Assembly (NCBI GenBank): GCA_964606695.1
Contig: CAZSHG010000004.1
Coordinates: forward strand, 97,725-161,724
Length of the DNA: 64,000 nucleotides
Source of the DNA: an uncultured bacterium
Lineage (GTDB): Bacteria; UBP14; UBA6098
Direction of reading: 5' to 3'
The notes below the pieces were generated by a model. That model saw only the letters and a list, made by a program, of their open reading frames with translations. It ran no database searches and had not been told where the DNA came from. Below, one piece after another: positions 20,924 through 45,725 of the stretch. The translations under genes were made by a program, and so were the position numbers. Position 1 is the first letter of the stretch. Each line of letters begins with the position of its first letter.

Positions 20924-20934
20924 GGGGAGAGATC

Positions 20935-25611: not shown

Positions 25612-26208
25612 TTAGTCCAGGACTTCCACCTTTTCCATGACGATGGTGGTCTGGGGGACATCCGAGGGGAAGGGCGATTTCGGGCCGGTGGGGGTTTCGG
25701 CTATTTTATCGACAACGTCCATGCCGTCGATGACCTTGCCGAAAACCGCATATCCCCATCCTCGGGCGTTCTCGCCGGTGAAGTTCAGGAAAGTGTTGTC
25801 TTTGTGATTGATGAAGAACTGGGCCGTCGCCGAGTGGGGATCGTTGGTGCGTGCCATGGCGATTGTGCCCCGGTCGTTTTTGAGGCCGTTGTTGGCTTCG
25901 TTCTTGATTGGGTCGTGAGTGTCCTTTTTCTGCAGATCCGCGGTGAATCCGCCTCCCTGAATCATGAAATCTTTGATTACACGATGGAAAATCGTGCCGT
26001 CGAAATAATCCTCCTCGACATAGGTGAGGAAATTTTCCACGGTGATTGGAGCTTTTTCCGGGTAGAGTTCGACATCGATGTTGCCCATGTTGGTCGTGAT
26101 TCGGACTACCGGGTTGTTACCAGCTTCCATTTTCGCCTCCGATTCTTGCGCAAAAGCCACCCCGAAAGCCAGCATTGCGATTATGATGGTTGTTAGAATT
26201 TCTCTCAT
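25612..26208 (-). CDS. ppiB: Cyclophilin-type peptidyl-prolyl cis-trans isomerase, periplasmic.
   Basis: Signal peptide plus cyclophilin signature [16 protein letters not shown] ... [21 protein letters not shown]. Confidence 0.9.
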
Positions 26209-29557: not shown

Positions 29558-29606
29558 ATCACTCCAATCCACCGGCGGGAGCCAAAGCCCCCGCCGGTTG
29601 AGCTTA

Positions 29607-32600
29607 TTAATCCTCTTCTCGGATATAGAACTCGTTTCTTCTTATCACGGCCCTTTCAGGAACCGTAGCTGAATCGGAAACTTCGGGGTCGTATTCCGGC
29701 CGCCGTCTTCTCGATACGTATGTAACCGATGTATTAATAACGGCACCCGTGCTATTTATGGTTACCATCAGGACATCGGTGCTCGGAGCGGTGGAATCTG
29801 GGGCTGTCAGTGTCCAGCTCGTCTCGCCGGTTGCGCCGGTTACTGCGTTACCGCCGCCGGATGCGCTTGCCGCGGAAAGCGTTACGCTCTCGCCGGCAAT
29901 TGGGTTATCCCATTGATCGACGATACGCGTGCTGACCAGATATGAAGTATTATATGGAACTTCAGACGGAGCCGTTATCGACGAATGACTGGAATTCGGT
30001 AGATCGTGCTTCAGATATACAACATTATTAGCAGTAACACCGCCAATATTAGCCGTAACGTCCACTATACGAGCCGTATCCTGGTTTGCGTAATCATCCC
30101 GGAACAGGTTAGCGCCGGTATAATTACTAATTGCGTAACTGCCGTAGCATTCGTTAATCGAGGTAACCGGCGAGGACGCCGTTCCCCAATCCGCGATAAC
30201 ATTCACGCTGGTTCCGTTAACTACGGGACGGCGGTTAACGTCCCAAATCGAGACCTGGATTTCCGCCGTTCCGGTAGCATCGGCATATACCATATATGGC
30301 GAGATGGAAATACTAATCGAGTCCGCCGGGCCGCTGTTGTAGAAGAAAGTAGTATCGGCACGGGTTCCGGATGTATCTCGTGTTTCGGCGGAGATAGTTA
30401 CGATGCCGCTATCCCTCGGCGACGATGAATACCAGGTAGCGAAAGCGAATCCGGAATCGTCCGTCACCGACGATGTTGTAACCGCGCCCTGTAACGCGGT
30501 GAACCATACTGCCGTTCCGGGCGCAACCGGGTTATCGTAAACATCGGTAACGATTGCCATCACTGAGTTCGCTACGCCGTCGGTATCGAAACCCGGAACA
30601 TTGCAATCGCCTACGGAGACCGAAACATGATACGGTAATCCGCTTCCTATAGTAATCCTCGGCGCACGCGAATCGATAGATCCGCCGGCAGGAATATATG
30701 CCACCGCCTCGATGACCATAGACCCAGATCTGTCGCCGCTTCGTGCCGCGACGCTGGCGCGACCGGCCATCGTATATACCGTATCGCTGACCAATCCGCC
30801 GCCTGGAATAAGTTCCGGATTGATAGAGCCACCGATCGGGTAATCGACGATTCGGAATATTACTGCGCAACTATCGCGAACCGGATTATCGTATTGATCG
30901 AATATTACCGCCTCTATAACCGCCTGGTCTATTTCGCCTACACCGCGGATATAAATAAAGTCTCTACTGACATCGATATCCATCGTATGAGGTGGGCCTG
31001 CTTTAAGGAGAATATTTGCGTGCGCTGTGATTTCATCGACGGTCGCCGTAACACCGGTCATACCTGCTTTCAGGCCGGGCGTGTAGAACGTCGAGAAGTA
31101 ACCGCTGTCATCGACTGCGACTATCGGATCGGCGATACTACCCGTTCCGATGCTATCGACAGTGAGATATACATAAGTTCCCGCCGCGACGGGATTTCCC
31201 ACGCCGTCGGTTACCATACCGCTAACCACACTCGACGTTGTGCTTCCGACTGTAGCCGTATCGGGCACAACGGATAACTCGATATCCGCTGGCGAGCCGG
31301 CTTCGTAGGTAACAGCGACCCTGGACGTTTCTCCCAGGCATGTCGCCTTTATAGTATCCACGCCGCTTGTATCGGCGGCTACCAATAAGGCTTCCGCGAT
31401 ACCTCCCGATAGATAATCGAAAGGAGTAATCAGGCCGAGATCCGCCGTAAATCTCACTATAACTCCGTTTGCAATCGGATTACCATCGGAGTCGAGAACT
31501 AGCGCTCTGACATCCGCAGTTGAAGATCCGTCGGCAGGCAAGCCTCGCGGAGTAATGCTGAGGATTATCGTATCTACCGAATCTGGCACGAAGTCGATAG
31601 GCAGATAACCTGTCGCTCCGCCGCTTGTAGCCATCAGATATGTCGAGCCCACAGAATCGGGAGAGGTAATTCTGAATCTAACTCCGCCGTTGCCGTCCGT
31701 AACCGCTATCGGTGGGCTTACGTATCCGAATTCGAGTGTGAAGTTCACCGCCTGGTCGGGGATGGGATTGCCAAAGGCATCCTCTACCCAGGCGGAATCG
31801 CTGAGCGTATCCGCGCCATCCGCAATTAATTGGACGAAACTCGTATCGAAACGCACAACTGCCGCTTCACCGGGACTGAAGTAAACGGACTGCGTATCCG
31901 AACATACGGTATCGCTTCCCATTGGTATATATGCATAAACATAAGTGCTTCCCGCTATGGTTGGTGCGTAAAGTTCGACGGTGGCCTGTCCGCCTTCTGT
32001 GTCCTGCCTGTTCGGGACTATTAAAGCCTCTACGTTTCCCGGCGGGACGAGTTGCGTGAATCGCACAATCGTGCCGTCGGCTATCTCGAAACCGGTCGAG
32101 TCCGTTACGAAGGCTCTAACGTTCGTGCTCGAAATACCGTCGGCATCCATGTATCTTGTGTCTATCGAAAGGCCGATATCCGCTACGGTAGTCGGCATGA
32201 GTTCTACCTGCGTTATACCTGTTGCCGAACCACAGTTAGCGGTAATTACGGCCATTCCCGCATATCTACCTGCTCTGAATCTTATATCGAAAGCTCCGGT
32301 ATCGTTTGTAGCGGTAACAGGTGTAATCGTGCCGTAATCAGATGGATTGATGCTCAAATTAACTATTTGTCCCGCATTCACCGGATTGCCTTCTTCGTCG
32401 TAAACGACTCCGTAAATACGCGTTGTATCCGTTTCATTGGCAAGTAGCGATGAATCTGCCGGCCACATGCGTATCAGATACGGATCGCCAGGCACGAATT
32501 CTATTGATACTGTGTCGGTGGAATCGCCGCTGGTGGCGACGAGGGTATCCCACCCAACGCTTGTATATGAAGTAACAGTCCCATAAACTACGCCATCGAC

Positions 32601-35600
32601 AGTAGTGGCAAACAACGGCGAAATACTGCCGAGATTCAATTCACTGAATCTCACGGGGGTGCCGTCCGAAACGGGGACACCAACGGTATCCAGGACATAA
32701 CAGGTAACTCCCGCCGTCGATGTTCCGTCGGCTGTCAACCTGGACGGCGACACCGTGAGTAACACGTCGCCGACGTCGGTGGGCGCAAATTCGATAAGTA
32801 TATTCGCGCCCGTGGCACCCGCACTTGCGGTTATGTTACTGAAACCGGCGGACGTTCCGGATAGTAGTCTCGCTCTGGCTCTGCCCAGCGTATCGGTATA
32901 TGCGGTCGATGGAATAGTTCCCAGTGAAGCTGAGAAATTAACTGCAACTCCACTACCGACCGAATTACCGAATATATCCTGAACATAGACCATTATCGAT
33001 GTTGTGTCCGCCCCATTAGCGACGATAACCGTGTCGGAAGCTTCTATATACATAATTTCCGGCGGACCTGGGATAAATCTCGCCATAGTCGTATCTACCG
33101 CGGTCGTTCCCGCACTTGCGACCACGAATACGGAATCGGAAGGCGTAGTGCTGGCGATGAGCGTGCTGGTAGCAACGCCTCCTGCCGTATAACCAATCAC
33201 CGGCGAGACAATACCGTCTGAGGTTGAGAATTTAACGATAGTCCCATCCGAAACGGGGTAGCCCGACGTATCGAATACTACTGCAGTCAAATCCGCGTTA
33301 TCCGAACCGTTCGCCGTAAGTGTAGGAGGATTGACCACAAGATACAGTGTATCGGCTATCAACGGGATGAAATTCAATGTAGCGTAACCCGCGGCACCTC
33401 CGCAGGTAGCGGAAATACTCGCCGTTCCGAAATCGGCGCTGGAAACTACTACAGCAGAGGCTCTTCCAAGAGTGTCCGTTGCAGATGGGGAAGTTATACT
33501 TCCAATCGTTATCCCGAAGTTTACGGACAGACCAGGCGAAACCGTGTTTCCGAAGGCGTCGGTTATTTCTACCGTAACGAGTTGTGTATCCGCACCGTCG
33601 GCATACATATCGCGTATCGGCGGGATAAAGGAGACTATAGCCGGCGGTCCGGGAGTAAACTCAACAACCGCTGTATCCGCAAGCGTAGCGCTAACGCTGG
33701 CTATAACAGTGTCATAACCGGCGATAACACTCGATAATAAGGCCGTGGTTACTTTGCCGCCTTCGGTATAACACGTTGTAGGACTCAATATTCCGCTTCC
33801 AATATTCTGGAAAGTAACAGGCGTATTATCAGACACAGGTCTTGTTCTTCCCAGGGAATCGATATTGAATACCGTTGCCAATACATTACTCGTAGATACG
33901 CCGTCCGCCGTAAGTCGCACGGGATTTGCGACTATGCTAATTAGATCCGCATCGAGTGTTGTAAACTCGTAAGGTTTACTTGCCACCGCTCCCTCACTTC
34001 GTGCTGTGATAAATGCAGGACCGGCTTCCGTGCTCGAAACGAGCGTCCTCGCCGAACCGCTGGTCGAGTCCACCGCAACGGGCGAAATTATTTCTCCCCG
34101 GCTCGTCTCGAATGTAACAGCGGTTCCAATATCCACGGGGTTAGTGTATTCATCGTAAACGTGGACAACGACGGGATAGCCTGAACCGTCGGCAGGCAGA
34201 GTCGTGGTATACATCGTATCGAAGATTATTATAGCAGGTTCGCCCGCCTGATAGGTTACCTCGAAGGTATCCGCGACAGTAGCGCCGACGTTGGCGATTA
34301 TCCTGCCCGTTCCGACGCCGATTGGCGCGGTAAGTTCGACATGCACCGTGCCGGCGTCCGTGAATACTATCCGTGGGGTTATAATCCCTCGAATGAAGCT
34401 ACCTGAAGTGTCCTGTGTGAACGATACCCTCGTGCCGTCGGAGACGTAAAGCCCACTGGAATATACCCATGCCTTAACATTGGCAGTCGATGTTCCGTCG
34501 CCCTGGAGAATTGCGGGATTGATAGTCATTACTATTTCATCCGCGATGAGCGAATCCAGCCGAACATCGACGAATTGAATCGCTTCCTGACAACGGATTG
34601 TTATAAGCGCGTCGCCAACTTCGGTTCCGGCGGTAAGTCTGGTGAATACATAACCAGCGGAATTCGTATATCCTGTCGGTATAACCGAGCCGAGAGTCGT
34701 CTCGAAACTAACCGGAGTGCCCGGTCTAACGGGATTAGAGAACCGGTCGTAAACTGTGCATTCCACTGCGGTAACTGAAGCGCCGTCGGCATACAACACC
34801 GAATCCTGGGCATAAGCGATTATCCTGTTGGCGACACCGGGATCGAGTCTTATGTTGACTGTTCCTGTATCGTCGTCGGCTATGGCTAGAATCTGCACAC
34901 TACTTGCGGCTATCGTATCCGCTCTTATAGTTGTTATCGCTATCCCACTGTCGGTATATGCTTCATTAGGTTCGGCATAAGCGAGCCCCGACGGCACGAC
35001 GAAATCCACGAGAGTCTCATCGGACACGAGGTAACCGCCCGGCGAGTAAACATGCGCGCGAACCGAAGTCGAAGAAACGCCGTCCGCCGTAAGCGAACTA
35101 CTGTCCGAATATACGATTATATTAGATACAGTGGTAGGCCTGAAATTAATCTGGTTGTAACCTACAGCCGATCCGGAATGCGCCATTATAACAGCGTCTC
35201 CAGGATTAAGACCGGACGTAAGGACAACTCTCGCAATACCACTCGTATCCGTAATCGCGCTTGAGGTAATCGTGCCGAGGCTAGTTGTAAATGTAACTTC
35301 TTGACCGGCTCTCAAGTGGTTGCCGTATTGGTCGTTCACGCGGGCATATACATACATGTGATCCCATCCGTCGGCGTTTAGGGTATCTTGTGGAACGTGA
35401 GTTGAATCTCCCCAGATTTCTATTGTCGCCGCGGAACCGGGATGTATAAATACGCGGACGCTGTCCATAATCGAGTCGCCCGGCGTGTAAACTTTGCCTA
35501 CAATCCATGCCTCGCCGTAGCCGACATCGGTACTCGACGTGAAGCTGGTAACGCACGAACCGCCCAGAGTTAGTTTGGGCGAAACGACCGTCCCGCCGGT

Positions 35601-38600
35601 ATCGGCCGGATGCACCTGGAAATAAACCTCGGTGCCGTCCGATGCCGGACTACCCTCCGTATCGTAAACGTCGCACGTGAGGACAGATTGCGACATACCG
35701 TCAGCCGTTACTACTACCGGATCGGCCGTCATCAGGAGATACCCGACGTCGCTTTGCCGTATGGTTATCGGTGTAATCTCGAATGCGTCTCCGCTACTCG
35801 CCCATACACGGGCAGTTCCGGGATCGGTTCCCGCGGTAAGCGTGGTGAAAGCCTCTCCGACGGAATTCGTCATCGTAGAGGTCGGGTAAATTGACCCGAG
35901 ATCGGTGCCGAAAGAAACGTTATGCCCGGACATAAGTGGATTATTGAAATCGTCGTATAACGTAGCCGTGAGGCCGGTATTATCCCGTCCGTTCGCCGCG
36001 ATTACGTCTGTATCCGGGATAAAGGTGATATATGAAAGATCACCCGGAAGAATCTGGACGAGCACCGAATCGCGGACGGAATCCACCGCCGCGCCTACTG
36101 CGCCTTTAATCCAGACCCTGCCTCTGATAGTCTTCACGCGGAACGTTGTATTTGCTTCGCCACTCTCTGTGTATCCGACTTCTGGAATCAAGTTTCCGAA
36201 AGTATCCGCTGGCGTGGGCGGAGATGTAAAACCGTCGGGAATCATCGAGAAATCGACACGGGTTCTATCGCTCATCGGATTTCCGAGAGTATCATATACA
36301 TTGGCTTGAACGGCCGTTTGCGAGAACCCATCCGCCTGTAGAATCGGGTTTTCGACTGTAATCGCGATATCATTCACCGCGGAATCGCTACGGGTGAACT
36401 CGACGAAGGTATCACCGCGCGCGTCGCCCGCCCTTGCGGTTACCCTGGCGACACCCACGTTATAAGTGCTCATCAGGTCGAAAATCACCATGCCGCGCGA
36501 ATTCGTTTCGTCCGAAGTCCTCGAAAGGATGCCCATACTGGCCTCGAAATCGACCTCGGTGCCGGCGGTCATAGCGTTGTAATATCTATCGTAAACATAT
36601 ACACTACAGGTCGCCACCGAGAAACTATCCGCGGGAATAACCGCAGGCGTTGGCCAGATGTCTATAATATGCGGATCGCCCGGGATAAGCTCGCACCACG
36701 TCGTATCGGCGATTGTATCGTTGCCTATATAAACCTCGGCGACGATATCGCATACACCCGCAGTAGTATCCGCACTAAATTCGGTTACGAATTCGCCGCT
36801 GTCGGTATAAACGGTCGCGGGAGAAATAAATCCGTAATTCGTGCCTGCGCTATCCGGTATCGGATAGAGGTGCACAGGTGTCATATACATAATAGGATTA
36901 CCGATAGAATCACGAACCACACCGCTAATCGTAGCGGTTGAATGCCTGTCCGCCGGGATTATATCCGGTTCGATGGACACGAAAACGTCGCCGATACCAA
37001 AGGGCACGAAATCGATATGTCCGATACCAATAGCTCCCTCGCAGGTTGCCGTAATCACGGCGGTTCCCGGAGTTGTGCCGCTTCTGAGCAGAACGGTCAC
37101 TACTCCTGTGCTATCGATCAGAGTATCGGTAACCGTAACGCCCAGCGTATCTATTGTTCCCAGATTCGATTCGAATATGACAATCTTCCCGTTTTTGACA
37201 CGATTGCCCTGGACATCGCGAACTATCGCAGTTACAGAGCATGTGTCCATTCCATCGGCGATAAGACTCAATTTGGATGGGGTTACCTCGATAACATGTG
37301 GCGGACCAGGAACGAAATTAATAAGGGTCGTATCCGCGACAGCCATGCTGTCCGTCGGATCCCAGGGATCTCCGACGTATGCGATTATCGTATCCGGCTC
37401 GAGATTCGATCGAGACGGGCTTCTGAGAGTAACCACACCCTCGCCCATCGAACTGTATCCCACTCCCGGGAATATTGTTCCGCCCGATGAATAGAAATAA
37501 ATTGGTGTTGAATCCGAGACCGCCGTTCCTGAATCATTAAGCGCGTAAGCATGAACGAGACACGTGTTTAGACCGTTGGCCGTCATAGAAAGGCTGTCAG
37601 CGAATACGTCGATTTCTGCAACTTCGAGAGGCCTGAGTTCTATAAGTCCTGCACCGGTGGGCCCGCCCGAAACGTCCGCACTGATAACGGCTATTCCGGT
37701 AGATACTCCGGCCCTGAACGTAACGACGCTCGGAGCATCGTTATCTGTATAAACATAGGGCGGTATAACAGATCCCAGACTGGTGCTTGGACCGACCGTT
37801 ATATCTACTCTCGTCCCAGCCTCCACCAGGTTATCGTATTCATCCATGACTTTGATTGTGCATGCAGAGGCGCTGACGCCATCCGCTGTAAGAATCGGAT
37901 ACTCCGGGATAACCTCGACGTGATGCGGTGGTCCCGGCACGAACCAGACGTTGATTGTATCGCTGAGTGTCGTATCGATTCTTGCGGAAACCCATGCGGT
38001 TCCTGTGCTCGGTTCGGAATATAGAGATACTACGGCGTTTCCATCCGTAGTAGTTTCCAGTGTATCGATAACGCCGAAATCGGCCCCGGTGGAATCCACG
38101 GAATGGAACACGACTATCTGGCCGTCGCTGACGGGCTGGCCGAGTTCGTTGAGAACCCTCGCGGTAATAACCGAATAACTTTCACCGTCGGCGGCTATCT
38201 TGCGCGGACTTGCCCGTAAACTTAGATACGCCGGAGGTGAAATTCCTATATTTACGGTAACCACGGCATGTATTCCCTCGGCGGTAATATCCACTCTGGC
38301 AATTGTAGGAACACTTGTCGCAGTCAACACGGCGGTAACTTCGCCGCGCGAATTTGTATATCCATAAACTGGGCTTATATTTGCACCGGTCGCCGAAAAA
38401 TCTACTCGAACGCCTGAACCGACGGGATTATCATATCTGTCATACAGAATCGCATGGACAATAGTAAAGTCTTCGCCGTTGGCCACAAGAGCTGAATCTT
38501 CTGCCCAGGCATCGATACTGTCAACCGGGCCAGGCACCATATCTATAAATATGCCTCCGCAGGTAGTATCCACGGAATCGTGGGTGCAGGCTGTAAACCA

Positions 38601-41600
38601 CACCCTTCCCGTCTGCGTCGCGCTCCTCACCTGAACCGCGGCTTCTCCGGCGACAGTAAATCCCATAGTAGGCGACAGCATAGCCATAGTTGTATCCGAG
38701 GGCGATCCGGCAATCGTATCGATACTGAAATATACCGGCGTGCCGTCGGAAACGGGCATACCTACACTATCTGAAACAAACGCGCGCAGGAAGGTGGTGG
38801 ACATAGCGTCCGCGACGAGGGAACTGGTATCGGAAGTTAGAGTAACATAACTCGTCGCCGAATTTTCCAATACAATATAAGCTTCTCCGGTAGCGTCCTC
38901 GGCGTGAGCGCGTATTCGCGCTTCTCCGGGACGCCTTCCCGCCATAAATATTATATCGGCGTGACCACTGGAATTAGTCGTCTCATGGTCAGGATCGAGA
39001 TATCCCCTGTTAGCGTCGAAAGTTAGATCGATACCTGCACCAACGGGATTGGCGAATCTATCGAATACTTCGACATGGATATTCGTCGTAGAGAAACTAT
39101 CCGCGGGAAGAACGGAATCTTCCGGTTCTACCAGAATGCTATCGGGCGGACCGGGAAGTAATTCTACCATTACGCTTTCAACTACACCTCCGCCGGCATC
39201 TCCGACAATATAGGCAAGGCCCACATTGCGATTTGCAGTAAACACTGCCTCGAAATAACCGCTATCTGTATGGGCAGTCATCGGAGAGACTGAACCGTAA
39301 GGTCCTAACGAATCCGTCGTAACACTCAATAAAACCGGACTTCCATCGGAAATGGGATTCCCAATTGAATTGGTTACACGCCCCCAAACTCGCGCGGTAT
39401 CGCGTCCATCGGCTATAACTTCATTAGGATCGATATAGAGATACATGAACGCGGCGTTTGTATTCGTGAAATTCACTGTAGTCTGCCCAATAGCGGTTCC
39501 GGAAGTTGCCCAAATCACCGCTGTTCCGGGGGTAATACCGGCATACAGGAAAACCGTAGCTTCTCCAAGTGTATTAGTGTATGCGAGTGTATCGATGGTG
39601 CCGAGAGTAGTGGTAAAGGTAATTGGAACTCCGGCGTTTACCGTATTACCATTAATATCATAGGCCGTAACCAGTATCTGTGTGAATGTATCGCCGTTCG
39701 CAGGTATAGTCGTTGGAATAGCATCAATATCAATCGAAGCTGGAGGTCCCGGGATGAAATCGACGGTCGTTGTTCCAAGAACACTATCGCCTGCGTCCCC
39801 GGTGATAGTCGCTGTTCCTACGGTTGTTGCGCTTCTGAGAGTCGTTACTGCCTCTCCATCTATCGTATAAGCTATACCGGGGAATATAAATCCCAGATCG
39901 GTGGTAAACCTTATCGGCGTATTATCGGGAACGGCGACCATATCCGAATCCTGAACGACCGCATGTATAATCGTCGAACTGAGACCGTCCGCGTTCAATT
40001 GAGCTGAATCTGACATCAGGAATATATACGCCGCGACCAGTTCAGTGAAAGTAAGTTCAGCGTAATCAACATAAGAACCGCTCAGAATACTCGCCATAAC
40101 CGTAGTTGCACCGACCTCGTCAGAATACAGTTCCACCGAAATCTGGCCAAGACTATCCGTATTGCCTGTCGTATAAATGAAGGTTCCCAATGGGGTTGCG
40201 GCAAAGGTTACTGTAACTCTAGGGACAGGATTACCGTATTCGTCATAAACCGTTGCGGTTGCTGTAGCTCTTGAGAAACCGTCCGCAGGCACACTGTCGG
40301 GTGATACTTCGATATCGATTCCCGCCGGTTCTCCGGGTATAAACGATACAAGAGCGCTATCCTCAAGACCATATATACCACCAAAGACATGGGCATCTGC
40401 TGAAATAGTAGGTGCAACCCAATTCACATTTATCATTCCGCTTGTAGTAAAGGCTACATCCGGAATATCTCCAACCGGGCTTCCGTCGAGAACATTCTCG
40501 GTTCTAAAACTAACAATCGTGCCGTCTGCCACAGGATTGCCTGTTGAATCATAAGCCGAAGCCGTAACCACAGAGTAACTCGAACCGTCGGCCTGCACAC
40601 GGTTAGGTGAAGCTGTTACATTGATAAAGGAAGCGATAGGCGGTATCTGCTCGACATCGAACAATTGAGTAGCAGTAATCTGGTTACGGTCATAAGTTGG
40701 ATAATACGGTAAATCCCATTCGCCATAATCATCCGACACATGATTACCGTTACCGAAGAAAGCCTCCATTATTGCGGTTCCGACGTCGTTCGAGGCTCTG
40801 TATGTAGCCATAAATTGACCCTGGCTATCCACAATCGCAGGAGATGTAATGAAACCGGGGGCAATAGGTATATCTTCGTTTGCTTTTAATAAAATCGGCG
40901 TTCCTGGACGTGCGAAGTTTAGATAAACATCTTGAACCGTAGCATAAACGCGACTTCTGGATACGCCGTCTGCAAAGATAGTATCCGGGACAATGGAATC
41001 TATGTAGATATAGACCGGGCAGTCGGCAATGTAATGAACGAATATCGTATCCGCGATAGCTCCGCTATCCGCCGAAGCAATAATCGTATCTACAAGGGCA
41101 ACGGTTGTCGCGAACAATTGGGAAGTCGTGTATCCGTCTGCAGTAAACCCGAAGGGCGGATCTATTTCGCCACGCGCGGCTGTAAAATCGACTCGCGTAT
41201 CATCCGATATAGGTCTTCCACCTGCATCGAAAACGCTTGCACGTAAGCTCGTTGATGTTCCTACCGTTATCTTAATACTATCGGACGTAAGGACTATATA
41301 TGCCGGGCCCGTCGGGACGATTTCAATTGGCACCGTAGCGACAGCGTCGTCTATTGAAGCTCTAATAACAACACGGCCAATTACGGTTCCGCTGGTGAAC
41401 GTAGTCCGTGCGAAACCCGAGTCCGTCGCCATCGGCGAAATAATGCTACCCATAGTATCGGGGATAGCGTCGAATACTACGTCTCTGCCATCCTCGACGC
41501 GGTTGCCATAGGCATCGAAACATTCCGCGGTAATATCGGAAATCTCGCCGCCGACGGATAGCAGGGTATCCGGGTCGGCATCGAGTAAAATTGTCTCCAC

Positions 41601-44600
41601 AGGCCCCGGTTTGATACGAACGGTTTGCGTATCGGCAATACCTCCAATAGAAGCGATAACGACACACGTTCCGGCTAAAGTATCCGGCCGGAATTCAGCT
41701 ACCGCTTCGCCGCCCGCGGTTGATGGCCTCGGTGGGACTATATCCGCCATTCCTTCGGGTTCCACCCGCATCGAAACGAGTGTGCCGTCGCTTATCGGTC
41801 CTCCAGAACTATCATAGACTGTAGCCGTAACGTTCATCGTTCTGCCAATATGTATCGAAGTGCTGTCTATCGAGAGGAATATATCCTCTACAGGTAACGA
41901 GCCAACATAAACCACTTTCGTATCCGTTACTGCTCCTACAGTTGCAGTTACAAGACCGCTACCTTCCATAGTGTCCGAGCGGAATTCTGCCAGCGCCATG
42001 CCCGTATCCGTATCCACCGTAAACGGGACAACTCTTCCGATTTCCGGCGGGATTACGTCGAAATACACCGGCGTTCCGTCGCTAATTGGATATCCGGCGC
42101 TATCGAAGACTTCGGCTTTAACTCCCATCACACTCGACGGGGCTATACGAATGCTGTCGAGTGTCAATAGCACTGTCCCCGCGTGGCCTGCACCTATATA
42201 TACGTATTTCGAATCGGATACCGCGCCGGAAGTCGCTATTATCAGAGCCTCGCCGGATAAAGTCCCGGCCTCGAAACTCGCGGTGGCGATACCGTCCATA
42301 GTGGTCGCATGTTCGGGAGCTATGCTTCCCATTTCATCCGGTTCGACGCTGAATTCGACTATCGAACCGTCGCTGATATGCGATCCGGAAGTATCGAACA
42401 CCTCCGCCTGAATATTCATCGAACCTTCGATAGGCAGGTGTGTGCTGTCGGCCGTGAGATAGAGGAACCCCGATAAGGAACTTGTAAGCCAGATGCCTAT
42501 ATTATTGAAAACCGTCGGGTAAACGGATAATTTTGCTACAACCACTGCTTCTCCGGTAACAAAACGGCTTCGGAAAGTAGTTGTGCATGCGCTTTCAATA
42601 TTCGTGTTAATAGTCGGGCGGAGGATATCGCCCATTCCCTCGCTACCAGCTTCCAATTCAAATTCGACCGTGATTCCATCTCCAGCAGGGTTGCCATGTG
42701 CGTCTGTAACCAGAGCGGCTATTCTACTCGTGCTTGTGCTGTCGGCGGGTATCGTATCCGGTTCCGCCGAAAGATGTATCATTCGCGGAACATCGGGTTT
42801 GAAGGCTATCATCATACTGTCCGTAACATCTTCGGTGTCGCTTATAGCCACCGTCGCCTTGACCCATGTAGTGCCTATAGTAGTTGGAGCAATGAGATAT
42901 ATACGTGCGAAACCGCTTTCCGTAGTAGTGCTGAAAGTGTCGTCCATTGGTGAAAGGAACTCGCCCGGGACAAGCCCGCCATCGGTCGATCGAGGCGATA
43001 TCCTGCCGCGCGGCGACGTAGGTCTTTCAACGTCGTGAGAAATTCTGTTTTCCGCGTCGATCTTATTATCGGGTATATCGGGAGCCGGTCTGAATCTTGA
43101 TGAATATGGGAGGAACGTTCCCAATTCCGTCGAGAAAGTAACTTCGATTCCGTCCGAGCAGGGATTATCGTGCTCGTCCACGACGTAAACACTTATAAGG
43201 ACGCTATCCGCGCCGTTAGCCGTGGCCGAATCGAAATCGGCGAGCATACGTAGATCGCGTGGATAGACCGGGTAGAAATAAATATCGCCTATCCCCGCCA
43301 TCGCACCGGCGGAAGTTGCGGTTATCGTATGCCAACCGGTAACGCGGGAACTTGTGAGAACGGTTTGTGCCTGCCCGGATGCGTTAGTATTGTCGGAGGG
43401 GGGATTAACCGTCCCGCCGCTACCATCGGGGGTAAAGGCAACCGACTGTCCCGCGCCAACGGGGTTATCGTAGGCGTCGTAAACATCAGCCCAAACAGTG
43501 CATGTATCCTCTTCGTCCGCGCGAATACTATCCCGACTGAAGGCAACCTCTATTCTATCAGGTGTTCCCGAGAGGAAGGGAATATAAATCGTATCCGCCG
43601 CCGTTATCACTGTATCGGCAATTAGCGTATCATAAGTTTGATACCACGCGGCTACCATACAAGAGTCGGCCACATAACCGCTTGTCAACAGGACACTGCA
43701 GAAACCGTCGTCGGTGGTTGCTTCTCGATAATCTACCGTGTAAATATTTCTGGTTCTGTTGGTCAGTAAGGGCGTCGCCCTATCGAAACCGACTCCGGAA
43801 AGCGAGCCGAGATCGGTATAGAATTTGATCCGCACGCCGTCGGTAACCGGAGTATAGGCCGAGTCCAGAACCTCTGCGGTGATAGTCGATTGGCTGAGAC
43901 CGTCGGCGGGTAAGCTTGTCGGCGAGGCATTCAACTGTATATGGCGCGGTATAGTATTGGCTAAAAGGACTTCAGTATAACCCGATGCGCTCTGGCACGT
44001 GGCGGTGATTCTCGCATAGCCGGATATTGTGCCGCTGGTAAGCATGGTTGTTGCTTTTCCAAGTGAATCGGTAAGCGAACTGGAGGGGAAAAGGTCGCCC
44101 TTGTCCGTTGAGAAGCTTACGGTTAGTCCCGAGGAAACCGGGTTGCCATAGTCATCGAAAACCTGCGCAGTAATCTTTGTCGTATCAACACCGTCGGCCA
44201 TAATCTGGCTTCTTCCCGGCGTAACAACTATGCTATGCGGAGAACCGGCCACGAAAGTAACATAAGTCGTATCTGAGAGCGTATCGCTTGTTGAGAAAGC
44301 GCTGGCCGTGCATTCCACACGTCCGGCGGTAGTCGAACTCCGCAGTTTCACCCTGGCGTAACCCGATTCGGTATATGCGGTAATCGAGCTGTTGGGACTT
44401 GTATTCATTCCCAAAGTCCGATGGGTGGCTTTTCTGGAATTGACTAAATCGCCTTTGCCGGGCCTTAAGCTGGATAACGAATATTTGGAACCGGTATAGG
44501 GCAAAAGCGCGCCGTTATCGGAAGTGAAGTATATCTCGGTGCCGTCGGGGGCAGGCGCACCGGTTCCGCCGATTGTAACATAGGCGGAAAGCGTTAATTC

Positions 44601-45413
44601 AGATTCGCCGTCGGCGTCGATACTCGTAGGCGATGCCGAAAGGTCTATGAAATCTACGTCGGGGATATCGAGAACCCAAATCGTGGTTGTATCCGCGATA
44701 GAGTCCGCAGTGCCCACGACCGCCGCGGAAATAATGACTTCGCGGGAATCGTTCGGGGCGGTAAAGGTAGCCTCGACTTTTCCATCCGAACCAGTAATGG
44801 GACTCCCACCGGTGAAATCGAGGATCAGGTCGCCCATGTTCCCCTGAAGGAACTTGAAGGTAACGGTCTTATTTTGTAACGGCGTATAAAGGGAATCGAC
44901 GACTCGCGCGGTCAATAGAACCTGGCTGGTGCCGTCCGCATAAACCGTATCCGGCACCGCGGTGAGGAAAATGTATCCCGGATTGGTGAAGTTCGTGGGC
45001 AGGACGGTAATGGTTATCCGTTTAATCCTCTCCTGTTCCGCCGATACCTTTGCCGTTATCGTGATAGTATAGGTTCCGGAGCTGTCCGGCTCGGTCATAA
45101 TAGTCGTTCCCGCTATGCCTTCGTCGTTCGTAATCGGTTCTGGTGAGACAATCGAACCGCCGTTCGATGTAAACTCAACCGGAAGGTTTTTAGCTGGATT
45201 ACCAGAAGTCGCCCCTCTGACCATAACATAGATGTTGGTGAAATCGCCAGCGACAATAGTCGTCTGGTCCGCCCATATGCTGTCGATGATAAAATCCGTG
45301 TCGCCGCCCGGGTCGATATTGCCCTGTGAAGAACAACCTGAGAAGAAAACAACGCTTAGAGCGAGTATTAATACCGCCCCAAGAACGAATTTAAATCTAT
45401 TAGAGTTGGTCAT
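29607..45413 (-). CDS. Giant (5268 aa) surface lipoprotein made of about 45-50 tandem bacterial Ig-like (Big_1, intimin/invasin-type) domains. Putative adhesin.
   Basis: One uninterrupted 15.8-kb ORF. Lipoprotein signal (LILALSVVFFSGCSS). An about 95-100-aa unit with consensus ...TAxVxDxxGNPVxDGTxVxFxT... is reiterated throughout. Confidence 0.85.
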   Translation of the reverse strand: MTNSNRFKFVLGAVLILALSVVFFSGCSSQGNIDPGGDTDFIIDSIWADQTTIVAGDFTNIYVMVRGATSGNPAKNLPVEFTSNGGSIVSPEPITNDEGIAGTTIMTEPDSSGTYTITITAKVSAEQERIKRITITVLPTNFTNPGYIFLTAVPDTVYADGTSQVLLTARVVDSLYTPLQNKTVTFKFLQGNMGDLILDFTGGSPITGSDGKVEATFTAPNDSREVIISAAVVGTADSIADTTTIWVLDIPDVDFIDLSASPTSIDADGESELTLSAYVTIGGTGAPAPDGTEIYFTSDNGALLPYTGSKYSLSSLRPGKGDLVNSRKATHRTLGMNTSPNSSITAYTESGYARVKLRSSTTAGRVECTASAFSTSDTLSDTTYVTFVAGSPHSIVVTPGRSQIMADGVDTTKITAQVFDDYGNPVSSGLTVSFSTDKGDLFPSSSLTDSLGKATTMLTSGTISGYARITATCQSASGYTEVLLANTIPRHIQLNASPTSLPADGLSQSTITAEVLDSAYTPVTDGVRIKFYTDLGSLSGVGFDRATPLLTNRTRNIYTVDYREATTDDGFCSVLLTSGYVADSCMVAAWYQTYDTLIADTVITAADTIYIPFLSGTPDRIEVAFSRDSIRADEEDTCTVWADVYDAYDNPVGAGQSVAFTPDGSGGTVNPPSDNTNASGQAQTVLTSSRVTGWHTITATSAGAMAGIGDIYFYPVYPRDLRMLADFDSATANGADSVLISVYVVDEHDNPCSDGIEVTFSTELGTFLPYSSRFRPAPDIPDNKIDAENRISHDVERPTSPRGRISPRSTDGGLVPGEFLSPMDDTFSTTTESGFARIYLIAPTTIGTTWVKATVAISDTEDVTDSMMIAFKPDVPRMIHLSAEPDTIPADSTSTSRIAALVTDAHGNPAGDGITVEFELEAGSEGMGDILRPTINTNIESACTTTFRSRFVTGEAVVVAKLSVYPTVFNNIGIWLTSSLSGFLYLTADSTHLPIEGSMNIQAEVFDTSGSHISDGSIVEFSVEPDEMGSIAPEHATTMDGIATASFEAGTLSGEALIIATSGAVSDSKYVYIGAGHAGTVLLTLDSIRIAPSSVMGVKAEVFDSAGYPISDGTPVYFDVIPPEIGRVVPFTVDTDTGMALAEFRSDTMEGSGLVTATVGAVTDTKVVYVGSLPVEDIFLSIDSTSIHIGRTMNVTATVYDSSGGPISDGTLVSMRVEPEGMADIVPPRPSTAGGEAVAEFRPDTLAGTCVVIASIGGIADTQTVRIKPGPVETILLDADPDTLLSVGGEISDITAECFDAYGNRVEDGRDVVFDAIPDTMGSIISPMATDSGFARTTFTSGTVIGRVVIRASIDDAVATVPIEIVPTGPAYIVLTSDSIKITVGTSTSLRASVFDAGGRPISDDTRVDFTAARGEIDPPFGFTADGYTTSQLFATTVALVDTIIASADSGAIADTIFVHYIADCPVYIYIDSIVPDTIFADGVSRSRVYATVQDVYLNFARPGTPILLKANEDIPIAPGFITSPAIVDSQGQFMATYRASNDVGTAIMEAFFGNGNHVSDDYGEWDLPYYPTYDRNQITATQLFDVEQIPPIASFINVTASPNRVQADGSSYSVVTASAYDSTGNPVADGTIVSFRTENVLDGSPVGDIPDVAFTTSGMINVNWVAPTISADAHVFGGIYGLEDSALVSFIPGEPAGIDIEVSPDSVPADGFSRATATATVYDEYGNPVPRVTVTFAATPLGTFIYTTGNTDSLGQISVELYSDEVGATTVMASILSGSYVDYAELTFTELVAAYIFLMSDSAQLNADGLSSTIIHAVVQDSDMVAVPDNTPIRFTTDLGFIFPGIAYTIDGEAVTTLRSATTVGTATITGDAGDSVLGTTTVDFIPGPPASIDIDAIPTTIPANGDTFTQILVTAYDINGNTVNAGVPITFTTTLGTIDTLAYTNTLGEATVFLYAGITPGTAVIWATSGTAIGQTTVNFTNTNAAFMYLYIDPNEVIADGRDTARVWGRVTNSIGNPISDGSPVLLSVTTDSLGPYGSVSPMTAHTDSGYFEAVFTANRNVGLAYIVGDAGGGVVESVMVELLPGPPDSILVEPEDSVLPADSFSTTNIHVEVFDRFANPVGAGIDLTFDANRGYLDPDHETTNSSGHADIIFMAGRRPGEARIRAHAEDATGEAYIVLENSATSYVTLTSDTSSLVADAMSTTFLRAFVSDSVGMPVSDGTPVYFSIDTIAGSPSDTTMAMLSPTMGFTVAGEAAVQVRSATQTGRVWFTACTHDSVDTTCGGIFIDMVPGPVDSIDAWAEDSALVANGEDFTIVHAILYDRYDNPVGSGVRVDFSATGANISPVYGYTNSRGEVTAVLTATSVPTIARVDITAEGIHAVVTVNIGISPPAYLSLRASPRKIAADGESYSVITARVLNELGQPVSDGQIVVFHSVDSTGADFGVIDTLETTTDGNAVVSLYSEPSTGTAWVSARIDTTLSDTINVWFVPGPPHHVEVIPEYPILTADGVSASACTIKVMDEYDNLVEAGTRVDITVGPSTSLGSVIPPYVYTDNDAPSVVTFRAGVSTGIAVISADVSGGPTGAGLIELRPLEVAEIDVFADSLSMTANGLNTCLVHAYALNDSGTAVSDSTPIYFYSSGGTIFPGVGYSSMGEGVVTLRSPSRSNLEPDTIIAYVGDPWDPTDSMAVADTTLINFVPGPPHVIEVTPSKLSLIADGMDTCSVTAIVRDVQGNRVKNGKIVIFESNLGTIDTLGVTVTDTLIDSTGVVTVLLRSGTTPGTAVITATCEGAIGIGHIDFVPFGIGDVFVSIEPDIIPADRHSTATISGVVRDSIGNPIMYMTPVHLYPIPDSAGTNYGFISPATVYTDSGEFVTEFSADTTAGVCDIVAEVYIGNDTIADTTWCELIPGDPHIIDIWPTPAVIPADSFSVATCSVYVYDRYYNAMTAGTEVDFEASMGILSRTSDETNSRGMVIFDLMSTYNVGVARVTARAGDARGDTFVEFTRSDSAVNDIAITVENPILQADGFSQTAVQANVYDTLGNPMSDRTRVDFSMIPDGFTSPPTPADTFGNLIPEVGYTESGEANTTFRVKTIRGRVWIKGAVGAAVDSVRDSVLVQILPGDLSYITFIPDTDVIAANGRDNTGLTATLYDDFNNPLMSGHNVSFGTDLGSIYPTSTMTNSVGEAFTTLTAGTDPGTARVWASSGDAFEITPITIRQSDVGYLLMTADPVVVTADGMSQSVLTCDVYDTEGSPASDGTEVYFQVHPADTGGTVVSPKLTLGGSCVTSFTSSTDVGYGEAWIVGKVYTPGDSIMDSVRVFIHPGSAATIEIWGDSTHVPQDTLNADGWDHMYVYARVNDQYGNHLRAGQEVTFTTSLGTITSSAITDTSGIARVVLTSGLNPGDAVIMAHSGSAVGYNQINFRPTTVSNIIVYSDSSSLTADGVSSTSVRAHVYSPGGYLVSDETLVDFVVPSGLAYAEPNEAYTDSGIAITTIRADTIAASSVQILAIADDDTGTVNIRLDPGVANRIIAYAQDSVLYADGASVTAVECTVYDRFSNPVRPGTPVSFETTLGSVIPTGYTNSAGYVFTRLTAGTEVGDALITIRCQEAIQFVDVRLDSLIADEIVMTINPAILQGDGTSTANVKAWVYSSGLYVSDGTRVSFTQDTSGSFIRGIITPRIVFTDAGTVHVELTAPIGVGTGRIIANVGATVADTFEVTYQAGEPAIIIFDTMYTTTLPADGSGYPVVVHVYDEYTNPVDIGTAVTFETSRGEIISPVAVDSTSGSARTLVSSTEAGPAFITARSEGAVASKPYEFTTLDADLISIVANPVRLTADGVSTSNVLATVFNIDSLGRTRPVSDNTPVTFQNIGSGILSPTTCYTEGGKVTTALLSSVIAGYDTVIASVSATLADTAVVEFTPGPPAIVSFIPPIRDMYADGADTQLVTVEITDAFGNTVSPGLSVNFGITIGSITSPSATDTLGRASAVVVSSADFGTASISATCGGAAGYATLNFIPLIADTLYLVVNPPTLTANGSDNADLTAVVFDTSGYPVSDGTIVKFSTSDGIVSPVIGYTAGGVATSTLIASTTPSDSVFVVASAGTTAVDTTMARFIPGPPEIMYIEASDTVIVANGADTTSIMVYVQDIFGNSVGSGVAVNFSASLGTIPSTAYTDTLGRARARLLSGTSAGFSNITASAGATGANILIEFAPTDVGDVLLTVSPSRLTADGTSTAGVTCYVLDTVGVPVSDGTPVRFSELNLGSISPLFATTVDGVVYGTVTSYTSVGWDTLVATSGDSTDTVSIEFVPGDPYLIRMWPADSSLLANETDTTRIYGVVYDEEGNPVNAGQIVNLSINPSDYGTITPVTATNDTGAFDIRFRAGRYAGMAVITANCGSATGITQVELMPTTVADIGLSIDTRYMDADGISSTNVRAFVTDSTGFEIADGTIVRFTQLVPPGNVEALIVPNRQDTEGGQATVELYAPTIAGSTYVYAYIPMGSDTVCSDTQSVYFSPGEAAVVRFDTSFVQLIADGADTLSDSAWVEDAFGNPIPDQAVNFTLEFGYVSPPIAVTDGNGGVRFRITSPDSVGSTYLMATSGGATGYLPIDFVPDSVDTIILSITPRGLPADGSSTADVRALVLDSDGNPIANGVIVRFTADLGLITPFDYLSGGIAEALLVAADTSGVDTIKATCLGETSRVAVTYEAGSPADIELSVVPDTATVGSTTSSVVSGMVTDGVGNPVAAGTYVYLTVDSIGTGSIADPIVAVDDSGYFSTFYTPGLKAGMTGVTATVDEITAHANILLKAGPPHTMDIDVSRDFIYIRGVGEIDQAVIEAVIFDQYDNPVRDSCAVIFRIVDYPIGGSINPELIPGGGLVSDTVYTMAGRASVAARSGDRSGSMVIEAVAYIPAGGSIDSRAPRITIGSGLPYHVSVSVGDCNVPGFDTDGVANSVMAIVTDVYDNPVAPGTAVWFTALQGAVTTSSVTDDSGFAFATWYSSSPRDSGIVTISAETRDTSGTRADTTFFYNSGPADSISISISPYMVYADATGTAEIQVSIWDVNRRPVVNGTSVNVIADWGTASSPVTSINECYGSYAISNYTGANLFRDDYANQDTARIVDVTANIGGVTANNVVYLKHDLPNSSHSSITAPSEVPYNTSYLVSTRIVDQWDNPIAGESVTLSAASASGGGNAVTGATGETSWTLTAPDSTAPSTDVLMVTINSTGAVINTSVTYVSRRRRPEYDPEVSDSATVPERAVIRRNEFYIREED

Positions 45414-45582
45414 AATAAAACTCCTCGAAAAAGCTAATATACGAAAGTTCCTATATACCTTATGATTATACTAATTCTCTTGAAGTGATTTGTCAAGCAC
45501 TAATTCCAAATAATTAATGTTTTAATGTATTGTCCGTGTTTGAAGCGCTCCGAAATGGCACGGATTAAAGCGAGCACGCATC

Positions 45583-45600
45583 TATATTATATATATATAT
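45583..45600. repeat. (TA)n dinucleotide tract (tatattatatatatatat) in the upstream region of the giant adhesin gene.
   Basis: Read directly. It lies about 170-190 bp upstream of the adhesin start codon (minus strand) in the 312-bp intergenic region. Confidence 0.8.
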
Positions 45601-45725
45601 TGGGATTTTACAACTTTTCGGACTCGTTTATTGACGGCGCGAGGAACGCCTTCGTTGGAAATAGGCGTTCGAAGCCCAAAAAGGTCATAAACAGGCGATT
45701 TGCGTGATATAAACGTGATATAAAA

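What the first reader, a model, noticed from the sequence alone, without database searches (positions are those of the whole stretch)
29607..45413. 15.8-kb gene for a 5268-aa Ig-like-repeat lipoprotein, followed by a separate small beta-barrel gene
A single ORF occupies one quarter of the window and encodes a lipoprotein with dozens of Big_1-type (intimin/invasin-like) domains. In type Ve inverse autotransporters, the Big-domain passenger is fused to an N-terminal outer-membrane barrel. Here the repeat protein has only a lipobox, and a separate 268-aa barrel-like outer-membrane protein is encoded 35-50 nt downstream. This hints at a two-component arrangement, with the barrel acting as anchor or exporter for the giant repeat protein. 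A TPR protein, a cyclophilin and a SagB-like dehydrogenase follow in the same orientation and may belong to the same surface-assembly locus.
Basis: partly seen in the sequence, partly recalled or inferred. Interest (0 to 1): 0.5.

Follow-up and report, generated by a model that had tools for sequence, protein, structure and literature searches.

The report
Giant Ig-repeat lipoprotein with partner barrel
An uncultivated sediment bacterium encodes a 5268-residue lipoprotein made of about 50 immunoglobulin-like domains, and directly downstream a small, uncharacterised outer-membrane barrel that sat next to such a lipoprotein gene in every relative whose upstream DNA could be read, so the two probably work together, although no experiment yet shows how.

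Summary
One ORF (29607-45413, minus strand) encodes a 5268-aa protein with a conserved lipoprotein signal (FFSGC) and about 50 divergent Big_1/Invasin_D3 domains. A 268-aa gene follows 49 nt downstream, then TPR, cyclophilin and SagB-like genes.

The 268-aa protein is predicted to be a 10-stranded outer-membrane barrel of OmpT/OpcA-like architecture. It belongs to a rare family without a name: 52 clusters among 1.84 billion representative proteins, none of them fused to anything.

- **Gene pairing.** Wherever the upstream DNA of a family member could be read, a Big_1 protein gene lay directly upstream. This holds down to 17-26% barrel identity and for partners from 697 aa to 6710 aa.
- **Accessory genes vary.** Lineages with partners of 5000 aa or more carry the TPR gene, and where the contig reaches further also cyclophilin and, in all but one, SagB-like genes. 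Other lineages carry secretin/T2SS-like genes or an ABC ATPase instead.
- **Families ruled out.** The barrel is neither an intimin/invasin barrel nor a Slam (DUF560) barrel.

Whether the barrel anchors or exports the fibre remains inferred. I file it as a new variant of known surface Ig-repeat lipoproteins (InvL-like, Lig-like), with a partner barrel I found no description of.

The parts
45414..45725 (-). Upstream intergenic region of the giant gene. It holds perfect TTGACA (45491-45496) and TATAAT (45465-45470) hexamers, but 20 nt apart.
   Evidence: Read directly from the sequence. The spacing is not canonical and promoter function was not tested.
29607..45413 (-). Gene for the 5268-aa Ig-repeat lipoprotein.
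   Evidence: ORF list and translation; Pfam Big_1/Invasin_D3; collinear orthologues.
45333..45413 (-). Signal peptide with lipobox FFSGC; the lipidated Cys would be residue 27.
   Evidence: PS51257-like pattern match, also present in orthologues L021-L024 and in the distant 697-aa partner protein of L014.
45285..45335 (-). Short tether after the Cys (CSSQGNIDPGGDTDFII), carrying the recurring motif C-x3-G-x-[IVF]-[DN]-P, usually followed by x-G.
   Evidence: The motif is seen in the window, in most close orthologues (L024 has S in place of D/N), in L014, and in Big_1 proteins P0066, P0067 (whose N-terminus is incomplete) and P0069. P0066 has the motif only as far as the Pro. A functional role is inferred.
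29772..45284 (-). Array of about 50 Big_1/Invasin_D3 Ig-like domains with a period of about 100 aa.
   Evidence: Self-built HMM finds 50 domains. Mean pairwise identity is 30% and the maximum 48%. There is a weak two-domain periodicity.
29610..29771 (-). 54-aa C-terminal tail that is not Ig-like (SRRRRPEYDP...EFYIREED).
   Evidence: The RRRP motif and the acidic end are shared by close orthologues only. This tail and domains 49-50 are the most variable parts of the protein.
29571..29598 (-). 12-bp G+C-rich RNA hairpin between the giant gene and the barrel gene, with no U-tract after it.
   Evidence: Centroid energy -27.5 kcal/mol (minimum free energy -28.8), z-score -4.2. Hairpins of different sequence sit at the same place in L004, L006 and, more weakly, L012.
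28751..29557 (-). Gene for the 268-aa signal-peptide protein predicted to be a 10-stranded outer-membrane beta-barrel, the conserved partner.
26242..28827 (-). Gene for an 861-aa TPR protein with a signal peptide. Its start overlaps the 3' end of the barrel gene.
   Evidence: Pfam and NCBIfam TPR hits (YbgF-, BamD- and PorW-like, all below the family cut-offs). The overlap with the barrel gene is kept in L001, L004, L006 and L008.
25612..26208 (-). Gene for a cyclophilin-type peptidyl-prolyl isomerase with a signal peptide (PpiA-like).
   Evidence: Pfam Pro_isomerase, E 2.5e-49; NCBIfam PpiA/PpiB-like. Kept in L001, L004, L006 and L008.
24956..25597 (-). Gene for a SagB-type nitroreductase-family protein with a hydrophobic N-terminus. 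It is the last gene of the conserved block.
   Evidence: Pfam Nitroreductase; TIGR03605 at 108 bits against a cut-off of 78. Kept in L001, L004 and L008.
24920..24938 (.). Terminator-like hairpin between the convergent SagB-like gene and the TonB-dependent receptor gene.
   Evidence: Consensus scan. It is a pattern match only.

Best explanation
The locus encodes a two-gene surface module.

- **The fibre.** The giant protein is exported by Sec, lipidated at Cys27 and tethered by its N-terminus. Its roughly 50 Ig-like domains form a very long fibre that projects from the outer membrane and most likely acts as an adhesin. The variable C-terminal end would be the distal tip.
- **The partner barrel.** The 268-aa protein encoded directly downstream is a dedicated 10-stranded outer-membrane barrel. 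I think it most likely docks or holds the short N-terminal tether, or the first Ig domain, at the membrane. It may also help bring the fibre to the surface.
- **Accessory proteins.** In lineages with proteins of 5000 aa or more, a TPR protein whose gene start overlaps the end of the barrel gene and a periplasmic cyclophilin are the likely scaffold and folding helpers for this very long substrate.

Shown here: gene structure, domain content, a conserved lipobox, the predicted barrel fold, and conserved adjacency across divergent lineages. Inferred: surface exposure, physical contact between barrel and lipoprotein, and the roles of the TPR and cyclophilin proteins.
For: - **Lipobox.** It is conserved in orthologues and in a distant 697-aa partner protein.
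- **Domains.** There are 50 Big_1/Invasin_D3 domains.
- **Barrel fold.** A usable model (pLDDT 73) best matches 10-stranded membrane barrels.
- **Rare, standalone family.** The barrel family has 52 clusters with E <= 1e-3 among 1.84 billion representatives, all 126-295 aa long.
- **Adjacency.** Every member with readable upstream DNA follows a Big_1 gene directly:
  - the window's own clade;
  - P0013 at 34% identity, with a 6710-aa partner overlapping by 4 nt;
  - P0015 at 29%, with a 5163-aa partner;
  - P0020 at 23%, with a 697-aa lipoprotein;
  - P0024 at 26%;
  - P0037 at 19-22%;
  - the 249-aa protein of L025, with hhalign probability 96.9%.
- **Breakdown of flanking synteny.** Downstream of the block the genes differ between loci. 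In the distant loci the accessory genes differ too, while the pair persists.
- **Gene overlap.** The barrel and TPR genes overlap in all clade members examined.
- **Orientation.** Domains 49-50 and the C-terminal tail are the most variable parts (0.38-0.53 identity in four of the five comparisons, against 0.61-0.91 elsewhere; the sixth, D49 against L012, is 0.75). A distal tip would behave like this.
Against: - There is no experimental or structural evidence of contact. A co-fold of barrel and tether could not be run.
- A 10-stranded barrel is narrower than the 12-stranded type V barrels. I know of no separately encoded barrel this small that passes another protein.
- In L025 and L018 the pair or the barrel sits among secretin/T2SS-like genes. 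L026 has a Big_1 lipoprotein beside a secretin and no barrel. Export may therefore not need the barrel at all.
- Only about eight lineages had readable context.
- Close relatives also share upstream synteny, so their agreement adds little.
- The organism's taxonomy, and whether it has a T2SS elsewhere in its genome, are unknown.
Confidence: 0.55

Rival explanations
1. The barrel is the translocon. In this reading the system is a split, type-V-like or Slam-like device. The lipoprotein's tether is captured in the barrel lumen during BAM-mediated assembly. The unfolded chain is then threaded out and pulled by the sequential folding of its Ig domains. The TPR protein and the cyclophilin keep it export-competent in the periplasm.
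For: - The gene pairing is strict.
- TPR plus barrel next to a lipoprotein cargo gene mirrors the Slam layout.
- Two-partner inverse autotransporters (ZirT with ZirS and ZirU) are a precedent for Ig-like cargo encoded apart from its barrel.
- The window's 64 kb holds no secretin, T1SS or T9SS signal for the giant protein.
Against: - The barrel has 10 strands, not 12 or 14, and shows no sequence relation to IAT_beta or DUF560.
- No fused ancestor exists among 1.84 billion representatives.
- Distant pairs sit inside secretin clusters.
Confidence: 0.2
2. Export runs through a T2SS-like secretin, as for Acinetobacter InvL and Klebsiella PulA. The small barrel is then only an accessory, for example a surface dock, a stabiliser, or a factor unrelated to transport. 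In the window's organism the secretin genes would lie elsewhere in the genome.
For: - InvL is a Big-domain lipoprotein without a barrel whose surface display needs the T2SS.
- L025 reads PilM-PilO-T2SSB-like-secretin, then a 3495-aa Big_1 protein with a lipoprotein-like N-terminus, then a barrel-family protein, then two T2SSE genes.
- L018 reads barrel, then T2SSB-like, secretin and T2SSE genes.
- L026 reads PilMNOP-secretin followed by Big_1 lipoproteins.
- Giant genes beside T2SS-like loci and a peptidyl-prolyl isomerase are reported in Omnitrophota.
Against: - No secretin or T2SS gene lies in the 64-kb window or within about 10 kb downstream in orthologous loci.
- This rival does not explain why the barrel, and not the secretin, is the invariant neighbour.
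Confidence: 0.2
3. The pairing reflects co-regulation only. The barrel would be a generic small outer-membrane protein of the OmpX/OmpW/OmpA-like class with its own function, such as membrane stability or small-molecule passage, that happens to ride in the same operon.
For: Ten of 30 family members give weak to moderate hits to the generic Pfam family OMP_b-brl. A strong hairpin separates the two genes in several loci, which could uncouple their expression.
Against: Adjacency persists where barrel identity falls to about 20% and the rest of the neighbourhood has changed completely. No family member was seen with a different upstream neighbour.
Confidence: 0.05

Closest known systems
Inverse autotransporters (type Ve: intimin, invasin, FdeC, YeeJ)
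   Same: The passenger is built from tandem Big_1/Invasin_D3 domains. The protein is anchored at its N-terminal end and the C-terminal end is variable.
   Different: In type Ve a 12-stranded IAT_beta barrel is fused N-terminally to the passenger. Here there is no fusion, the anchor is a lipid, and the separately encoded barrel has 10 strands and no IAT_beta signature.
Two-partner inverse autotransporters (Salmonella ZirT with ZirS/ZirU; Heinz et al. 2016, PMC4943183)
   Same: A barrel and its Ig-like cargo are encoded as separate neighbouring genes.
   Different: ZirT has an IAT-family barrel. Here the barrel belongs to another family, lies downstream of its partner, and the partner carries a conserved lipobox.
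Slam / type 11 secretion (Neisseria Slam1/2 with TbpB, fHbp, HpuA; PMC5449769)
   Same: An outer-membrane barrel, a TPR module and an adjacent lipoprotein cargo gene occur together, and the link was first noticed through gene adjacency.
   Different: Slam is one polypeptide with an N-terminal TPR domain and a 14-stranded DUF560 barrel, described in Proteobacteria. Here the barrel has 10 strands and no DUF560 match. The TPR protein is a separate 861-aa product and is missing from several lineages that keep the pair.
InvL of Acinetobacter baumannii and other T2SS-dependent surface lipoproteins such as PulA (PMC9245377)
   Same: InvL is an invasin-like Ig-domain protein that lacks a barrel and is anchored as a lipoprotein. 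Distant relatives of this module lie among secretin/T2SS-like genes.
   Different: InvL is 492 aa and the paper (as read) mentions no partner barrel. The window protein is 5268 aa, has an invariant barrel neighbour, and has no T2SS genes within 64 kb.
Leptospira LigA/LigB (from my own knowledge, not tested here)
   Same: These are lipoproteins made of tandem bacterial Ig-like domains and serve as surface adhesins.
   Different: Lig proteins use Big_2 domains, have 12-13 repeats, and I know of no dedicated barrel gene beside them.
Giant T1SS adhesins such as Salmonella SiiE (53 Big domains, about 5559 aa; from my own knowledge)
   Same: Size and overall build are much alike: a fibre of about 50 Ig-like domains.
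   Different: T1SS substrates have no N-terminal Sec or lipoprotein signal and need adjacent ABC, MFP and OMF genes. Here the lipobox is conserved and the conserved block has no T1SS genes.

Membership tests
Inverse autotransporter (type Ve) | 12-stranded IAT_beta barrel (Pfam PF11924) | tested here: not met
Inverse autotransporter (type Ve) | Barrel and passenger in one polypeptide, with the barrel N-terminal | tested here: not met
   The genes are separate and each has its own signal peptide. All 52 barrel-family hits are 126-295 aa long.
Inverse autotransporter (type Ve) | Passenger made of Big_1/Invasin_D3 domains | tested here: met
   Pfam E-values of 1e-129 to 1e-142 for each half; 50 domains.
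Slam / T11SS | 14-stranded DUF560 barrel | tested here: not met
   No member hits DUF560, and the model has about 10 strands. The definition comes from PMC5449769.
Slam / T11SS | N-terminal TPR domain fused to the barrel | tested here: not met
   The TPR protein is a separate 861-aa product whose gene overlaps the end of the barrel gene. It is absent from L016, L018 and L025.
Slam / T11SS | Adjacent gene for a lipobox-bearing cargo | tested here: met
   A lipobox is present in the window's protein, its orthologues and the L014 partner.
T2SS-dependent surface lipoprotein (InvL/PulA type) | Lipoprotein signal on an otherwise soluble exported protein | tested here: met
T2SS-dependent surface lipoprotein (InvL/PulA type) | A T2SS (secretin, GspE and others) that the protein depends on | not testable with these tools
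   The window has none and the rest of the genome is not available. Secretin clusters do flank distant relatives. Dependence can only be shown by experiment.
T9SS cargo | C-terminal sorting domain (TIGR04183 / Por_Secre_tail) | tested here: not met
   The last 400 aa hit no NCBIfam family, and Pfam shows only Ig domains. Other window proteins do carry such a domain.
T1SS giant adhesin (SiiE/LapA type) | No N-terminal signal peptide, and adjacent ABC, MFP and OMF genes | tested here: not met
   An N-terminal lipoprotein signal is conserved. The conserved block has no such transporter genes.
Generic OMP_b-brl superfamily (Pfam PF13505), for the 268-aa protein | Match to the family profile | tested here: inconclusive
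   Ten of 30 family members match (best E 1.1e-6). The window's own protein does not.

The most novel reading that the evidence does not exclude
The small barrel family is the outer-membrane component of an undescribed, dedicated display system for Ig-repeat lipoproteins. It would be functionally comparable to Slam or to a split type V system, built on a 10-stranded barrel, and found in uncultivated bacteria whose taxonomy is unresolved (the window's organism has T9SS-type genes). It would work together with TPR and cyclophilin helpers or with secretin-type machinery, depending on the lineage.
Probability: 0.3. Interest if true: 0.75.

Novelty: new variant of a known kind. Interest (0 to 1): 0.55.

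Why it matters
How lipoproteins reach the cell surface is still an open question for most bacteria outside the Slam, T2SS and LptDE examples.

This finding offers a rare, strictly paired barrel family as a concrete candidate component. It also offers a small natural pair for direct testing in E. coli: the 697-aa lipoprotein with its 255-aa barrel in locus L014. If the barrel proves necessary, that would add a new route for anchoring or exporting very long adhesin fibres. If it does not, the locus is still a well-defined giant adhesin operon of uncultivated sediment bacteria.

Tried and rejected
- **Intimin-type barrel:** rejected.
- **Slam/DUF560:** rejected.
- **T9SS cargo:** rejected, because the giant protein has no C-terminal sorting domain, although the organism has T9SS-type proteins.
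- **T1SS adhesin:** rejected on the conserved lipobox and the lack of transporter genes.
- **Split from a fused ancestor:** no fused form exists among 1.84 billion representatives.
- **Assembly artefact or recent repeat expansion:** rejected. There are no DNA tandem repeats, the domains are 30% identical on average, and orthologues are collinear.
- **Profile against solved-structure sequences:** only chance-level VDAC and porin hits.
- **Genome scan with the broad alignment A2:** failed for lack of a conserved stretch. The scan with the narrower alignment A1 returned three MAGs named only 'bacterium'.
- **Taxonomy:** not resolved.
- **Protein search with the first 2000 aa of the giant protein:** missed the close orthologues, but the distant Big_1 proteins it returned led to the loci that sit beside secretin genes.
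- **Second word-indexed search with A2:** added only two usable proteins.
- **AlphaFold-database fold search:** library not available.
- **L009's '810-aa' partner:** an artefact of scaffold gaps.
Full report
**Observation**

The window holds a single ORF at 29607..45413 on the minus strand that encodes 5268 aa.
- Its N-terminus, MTNSNRFKFVLGAVLILALSVVFFSGC, fits a PROSITE PS51257-type lipobox pattern. So do four orthologues fetched from metagenomes: LFTGC in three and FISGC in one.
- Pfam gives Big_1 and Invasin_D3 with E-values of 1e-129 to 1e-142 for each half of the protein.
- An HMM built from the protein's own repeats finds 50 domains with a period of about 100 aa between residues 43 and 5214. 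A 54-aa tail that is not Ig-like follows.
- The domains are old and divergent. Mean pairwise identity is 30% and the maximum 48%. Even lags are slightly more alike than odd ones, which indicates a two-domain super-repeat.
- There is no DNA tandem repeat.
- Orthologues of 5029-5394 aa occur in independent assemblies. One full-length orthologue aligns collinearly at 75% identity, domain by domain. The gene is real and stably inherited.

**The downstream gene**

From the ATG at 29557, which has a GGAG ribosome-binding site, the gene encodes 268 aa and starts 49 nt after the giant's stop codon. The product has a type I signal peptide.
- Pfam gives only a sub-threshold match to the Autotransporter beta-domain (19 bits, E 1.2e-3), and NCBIfam gives nothing.
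- An AlphaFold2 model built on 12 homologues has pLDDT 73 and pTM 0.65, and is almost entirely beta-strand.
- DSSP lists eleven strands. I read 200-208 and 214-224 as one kinked strand, which gives ten. Strands 5 to 8 are 20 residues or longer, as in OmpT and OpcA, whose strands project beyond the membrane. This reading is an inference from the strand list, because I could not inspect the coordinates.

**The barrel family and its neighbours**

The word-indexed search found only 12 clusters at 48-97% identity. An exhaustive profile search of 1.84 billion representatives found 52 with E <= 1e-3. All are 126-295 aa long, so none is fused to anything. Ten of 30 aligned members match the generic Pfam family OMP_b-brl, and none matches IAT_beta or DUF560.

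Gene context is the key result:

| Barrel | Identity to the window's barrel | Directly upstream | Directly downstream |
|---|---|---|---|
| Window's clade (L001-L007, L012) | 52-82% | Big_1 protein of 5029-5394 aa where the gene call gives a full length (otherwise cut by the contig or locus end) | TPR; further on, cyclophilin and SagB-like where the contig reaches (no nitroreductase ORF identified in L012) |
| P0013 (L008) | 34% | 6710-aa Big_1 protein, overlapping the barrel gene by 4 nt | TPR, cyclophilin, nitroreductase |
| P0015 (L019) | 29% | 5163-aa Big_1 protein | TPR protein |
| P0020 (L014) | 23% | 697-aa Big_1 protein with its own lipobox (IWVGC) | contig ends |
| P0024 (L015) | 26% | Big_1 protein cut by the contig end | contig ends |
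| P0037 (L016) | 19% in alignment A2, 22% by BLASTP | Big_1 protein of at least 1363 aa | ABC ATPase |
| 249-aa protein of L025 | 17% to the family profile; hhalign probability 96.9%, E 1.8e-10 | 3495-aa Big_1 protein with a lipoprotein-like N-terminus (LLIHC, not a canonical lipobox), preceded by PilM, PilO, a T2SSB-like gene and a secretin | two T2SSE genes |
| P0064 (L018) | 21% | not readable, contig edge | T2SSB-like, secretin, T2SSE |

No family member was seen with a different upstream neighbour. The pair is therefore a conserved module, while the accessory genes vary.
- The converse does not hold. L026 has a Big_1 lipoprotein next to a secretin cluster and no barrel.
- Within the window's close clade the upstream genes are syntenic too: AIR-synthase-like, Lnt, PorZ-like and FemAB-like. 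Agreement among close relatives therefore says little, and the distant loci carry the argument.

**Other features**

- After the lipidated Cys, several partner proteins share a short motif, C-x3-G-x-[IVF]-[DN]-P, usually followed by x-G. Examples are CSSQGNIDPGG in the window, CGKKGSVDPGK in L014, CSKKGTINPVA in P0066 (motif only as far as the Pro) and CDEEGVFNPAG in P0069. Only about 13-16 residues separate the Cys from the first Ig domain.
- The barrel's mature N-terminus carries a nearly invariant NP motif.
- The TPR gene start overlaps the end of the barrel gene in all clade members examined. This suggests coupled expression.
- The close clade has a conserved RRRP motif and an acidic end in the giant's tail, and an acidic tail on the barrel. 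Neither is found in distant members.
- Against the two closer orthologues, domains 49 and 50 are the least conserved domains (0.38-0.53, against 0.61-0.91 elsewhere) and the tail is comparably low (0.41-0.48). The tail is also low (0.42-0.50) against the two more distant ones. This fits a distal tip and N-terminal anchoring.
- A 12-bp G+C-rich hairpin (centroid -27.5 kcal/mol, minimum free energy -28.8; z-score -4.2) lies between the giant and barrel genes. Hairpins of different sequence occupy the same place in L004, L006 and, more weakly, L012. None is followed by a U-tract, so they look like mRNA-stabilising or attenuating elements, not full terminators.

**How it most likely works**

I think the giant protein is a Sec-exported, lipid-anchored fibre displayed on the cell surface, and the barrel is its dedicated outer-membrane partner. 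Of the specific roles, a dock or anchor seems likeliest to me. The barrel is small. Four of its strands are long, as in barrels whose strands project beyond the membrane. In some lineages the pair sits inside secretin clusters that could do the exporting, as shown experimentally for the barrel-less, invasin-like lipoprotein InvL.

A translocon role is not excluded. It would resemble a split type V system, or Slam with its TPR-plus-barrel build. It fits the absence of any other export system in the window and the coupled TPR gene. The TPR protein and the cyclophilin accompany proteins of 5000 aa or more, so they are plausible periplasmic helpers for very long chains. Giant-gene loci with a conserved peptidyl-prolyl isomerase and T2SS-like genes have been reported in Omnitrophota. 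I have no explanation for the SagB-type protein.

**Comparison with known systems**

The system works like the surface Ig-repeat lipoproteins (InvL, Lig) and resembles two-partner arrangements (ZirTSU, Slam). It fails the defining features of type Ve (IAT_beta barrel, fusion), Slam (DUF560 barrel, fused TPR domain), T9SS cargo (C-terminal sorting domain) and T1SS adhesins (no N-terminal signal). In the papers I searched I found no description of this barrel family or of its pairing with Big_1 lipoproteins. That is a limited search, not proof of absence.

**Verdict**

I rate it a new variant of a known kind, of moderate interest. The main value is a testable candidate for a lipoprotein display or anchoring component, with the compact L014 pair well suited to experiments.

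Noticed in passing
window 29571-29598 (-); also L004, L006, L012 between the giant and barrel genes: A stable G+C-rich hairpin without a U-tract sits between the giant gene and the barrel gene. The structure recurs in orthologous loci with a different sequence. It may stabilise the giant gene's transcript or attenuate read-through.
   Followed up: partly
window 46688-49018 (-) and 61011-62528 (+): A PorZ-like protein with a T9SS type A sorting domain, and an M14 carboxypeptidase with Por_Secre_tail. The organism therefore appears to have a type IX secretion system, yet the giant protein lacks the sorting domain.
   Followed up: partly
window 45726-50427 (-): A FemAB-family gene (weakly PEP-CTERM-associated type), the PorZ-like gene and Lnt (apolipoprotein N-acyltransferase) lie directly upstream of the giant lipoprotein gene. 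They are syntenic in close relatives (L021, L024). Any functional link to lipoprotein maturation is untested.
   Followed up: partly
window 24956-25597 (-): The SagB-type (TIGR03605) nitroreductase-family protein has a hydrophobic, signal-like N-terminus. It is kept at the end of the block even in the locus with 34% barrel identity (L008). I know of no reason for a flavoenzyme of this type to sit in a surface-protein operon.
   Followed up: no
window 58655-60712 (-): A 685-aa membrane protein with a long, extremely glutamate-rich low-complexity region and no Pfam match. It accounts for the strong AT and GC skew at 58-60 kb.
   Followed up: partly
window 16887-21936 (+): An Eco57I/MmeI-like type IIG methylase-type gene sits in a low-GC stretch (0.415 at 18-20 kb). 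Two ORFs without family matches follow. This may be a mobile or defence islet.
   Followed up: no
window 484-4466 (-): Two tandem paralogous genes for DUF3857 proteins. One also carries DUF3858 and the other a transglutaminase-like core.
   Followed up: no
L025 1959-20085, L026 2215-20249, L018 848-4625: In distant relatives, giant Big_1 proteins with lipoprotein-type signals sit immediately after a PilM/N/O/P-secretin gene set and before T2SSE ATPase genes. This is a recurrent layout joining a secretin with an Ig-repeat lipoprotein, and it deserves its own census.
   Followed up: partly
L023 (NPID01000815.1) and L008 (NPID01000336.1): The same NCBI assembly (GCA_015657875.1) holds two different versions of the module. 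One has a giant N-terminus 71% identical to the window's, and the other has a barrel only 34% identical. Either one organism carries two paralogous systems or the assembly mixes organisms.
   Followed up: no
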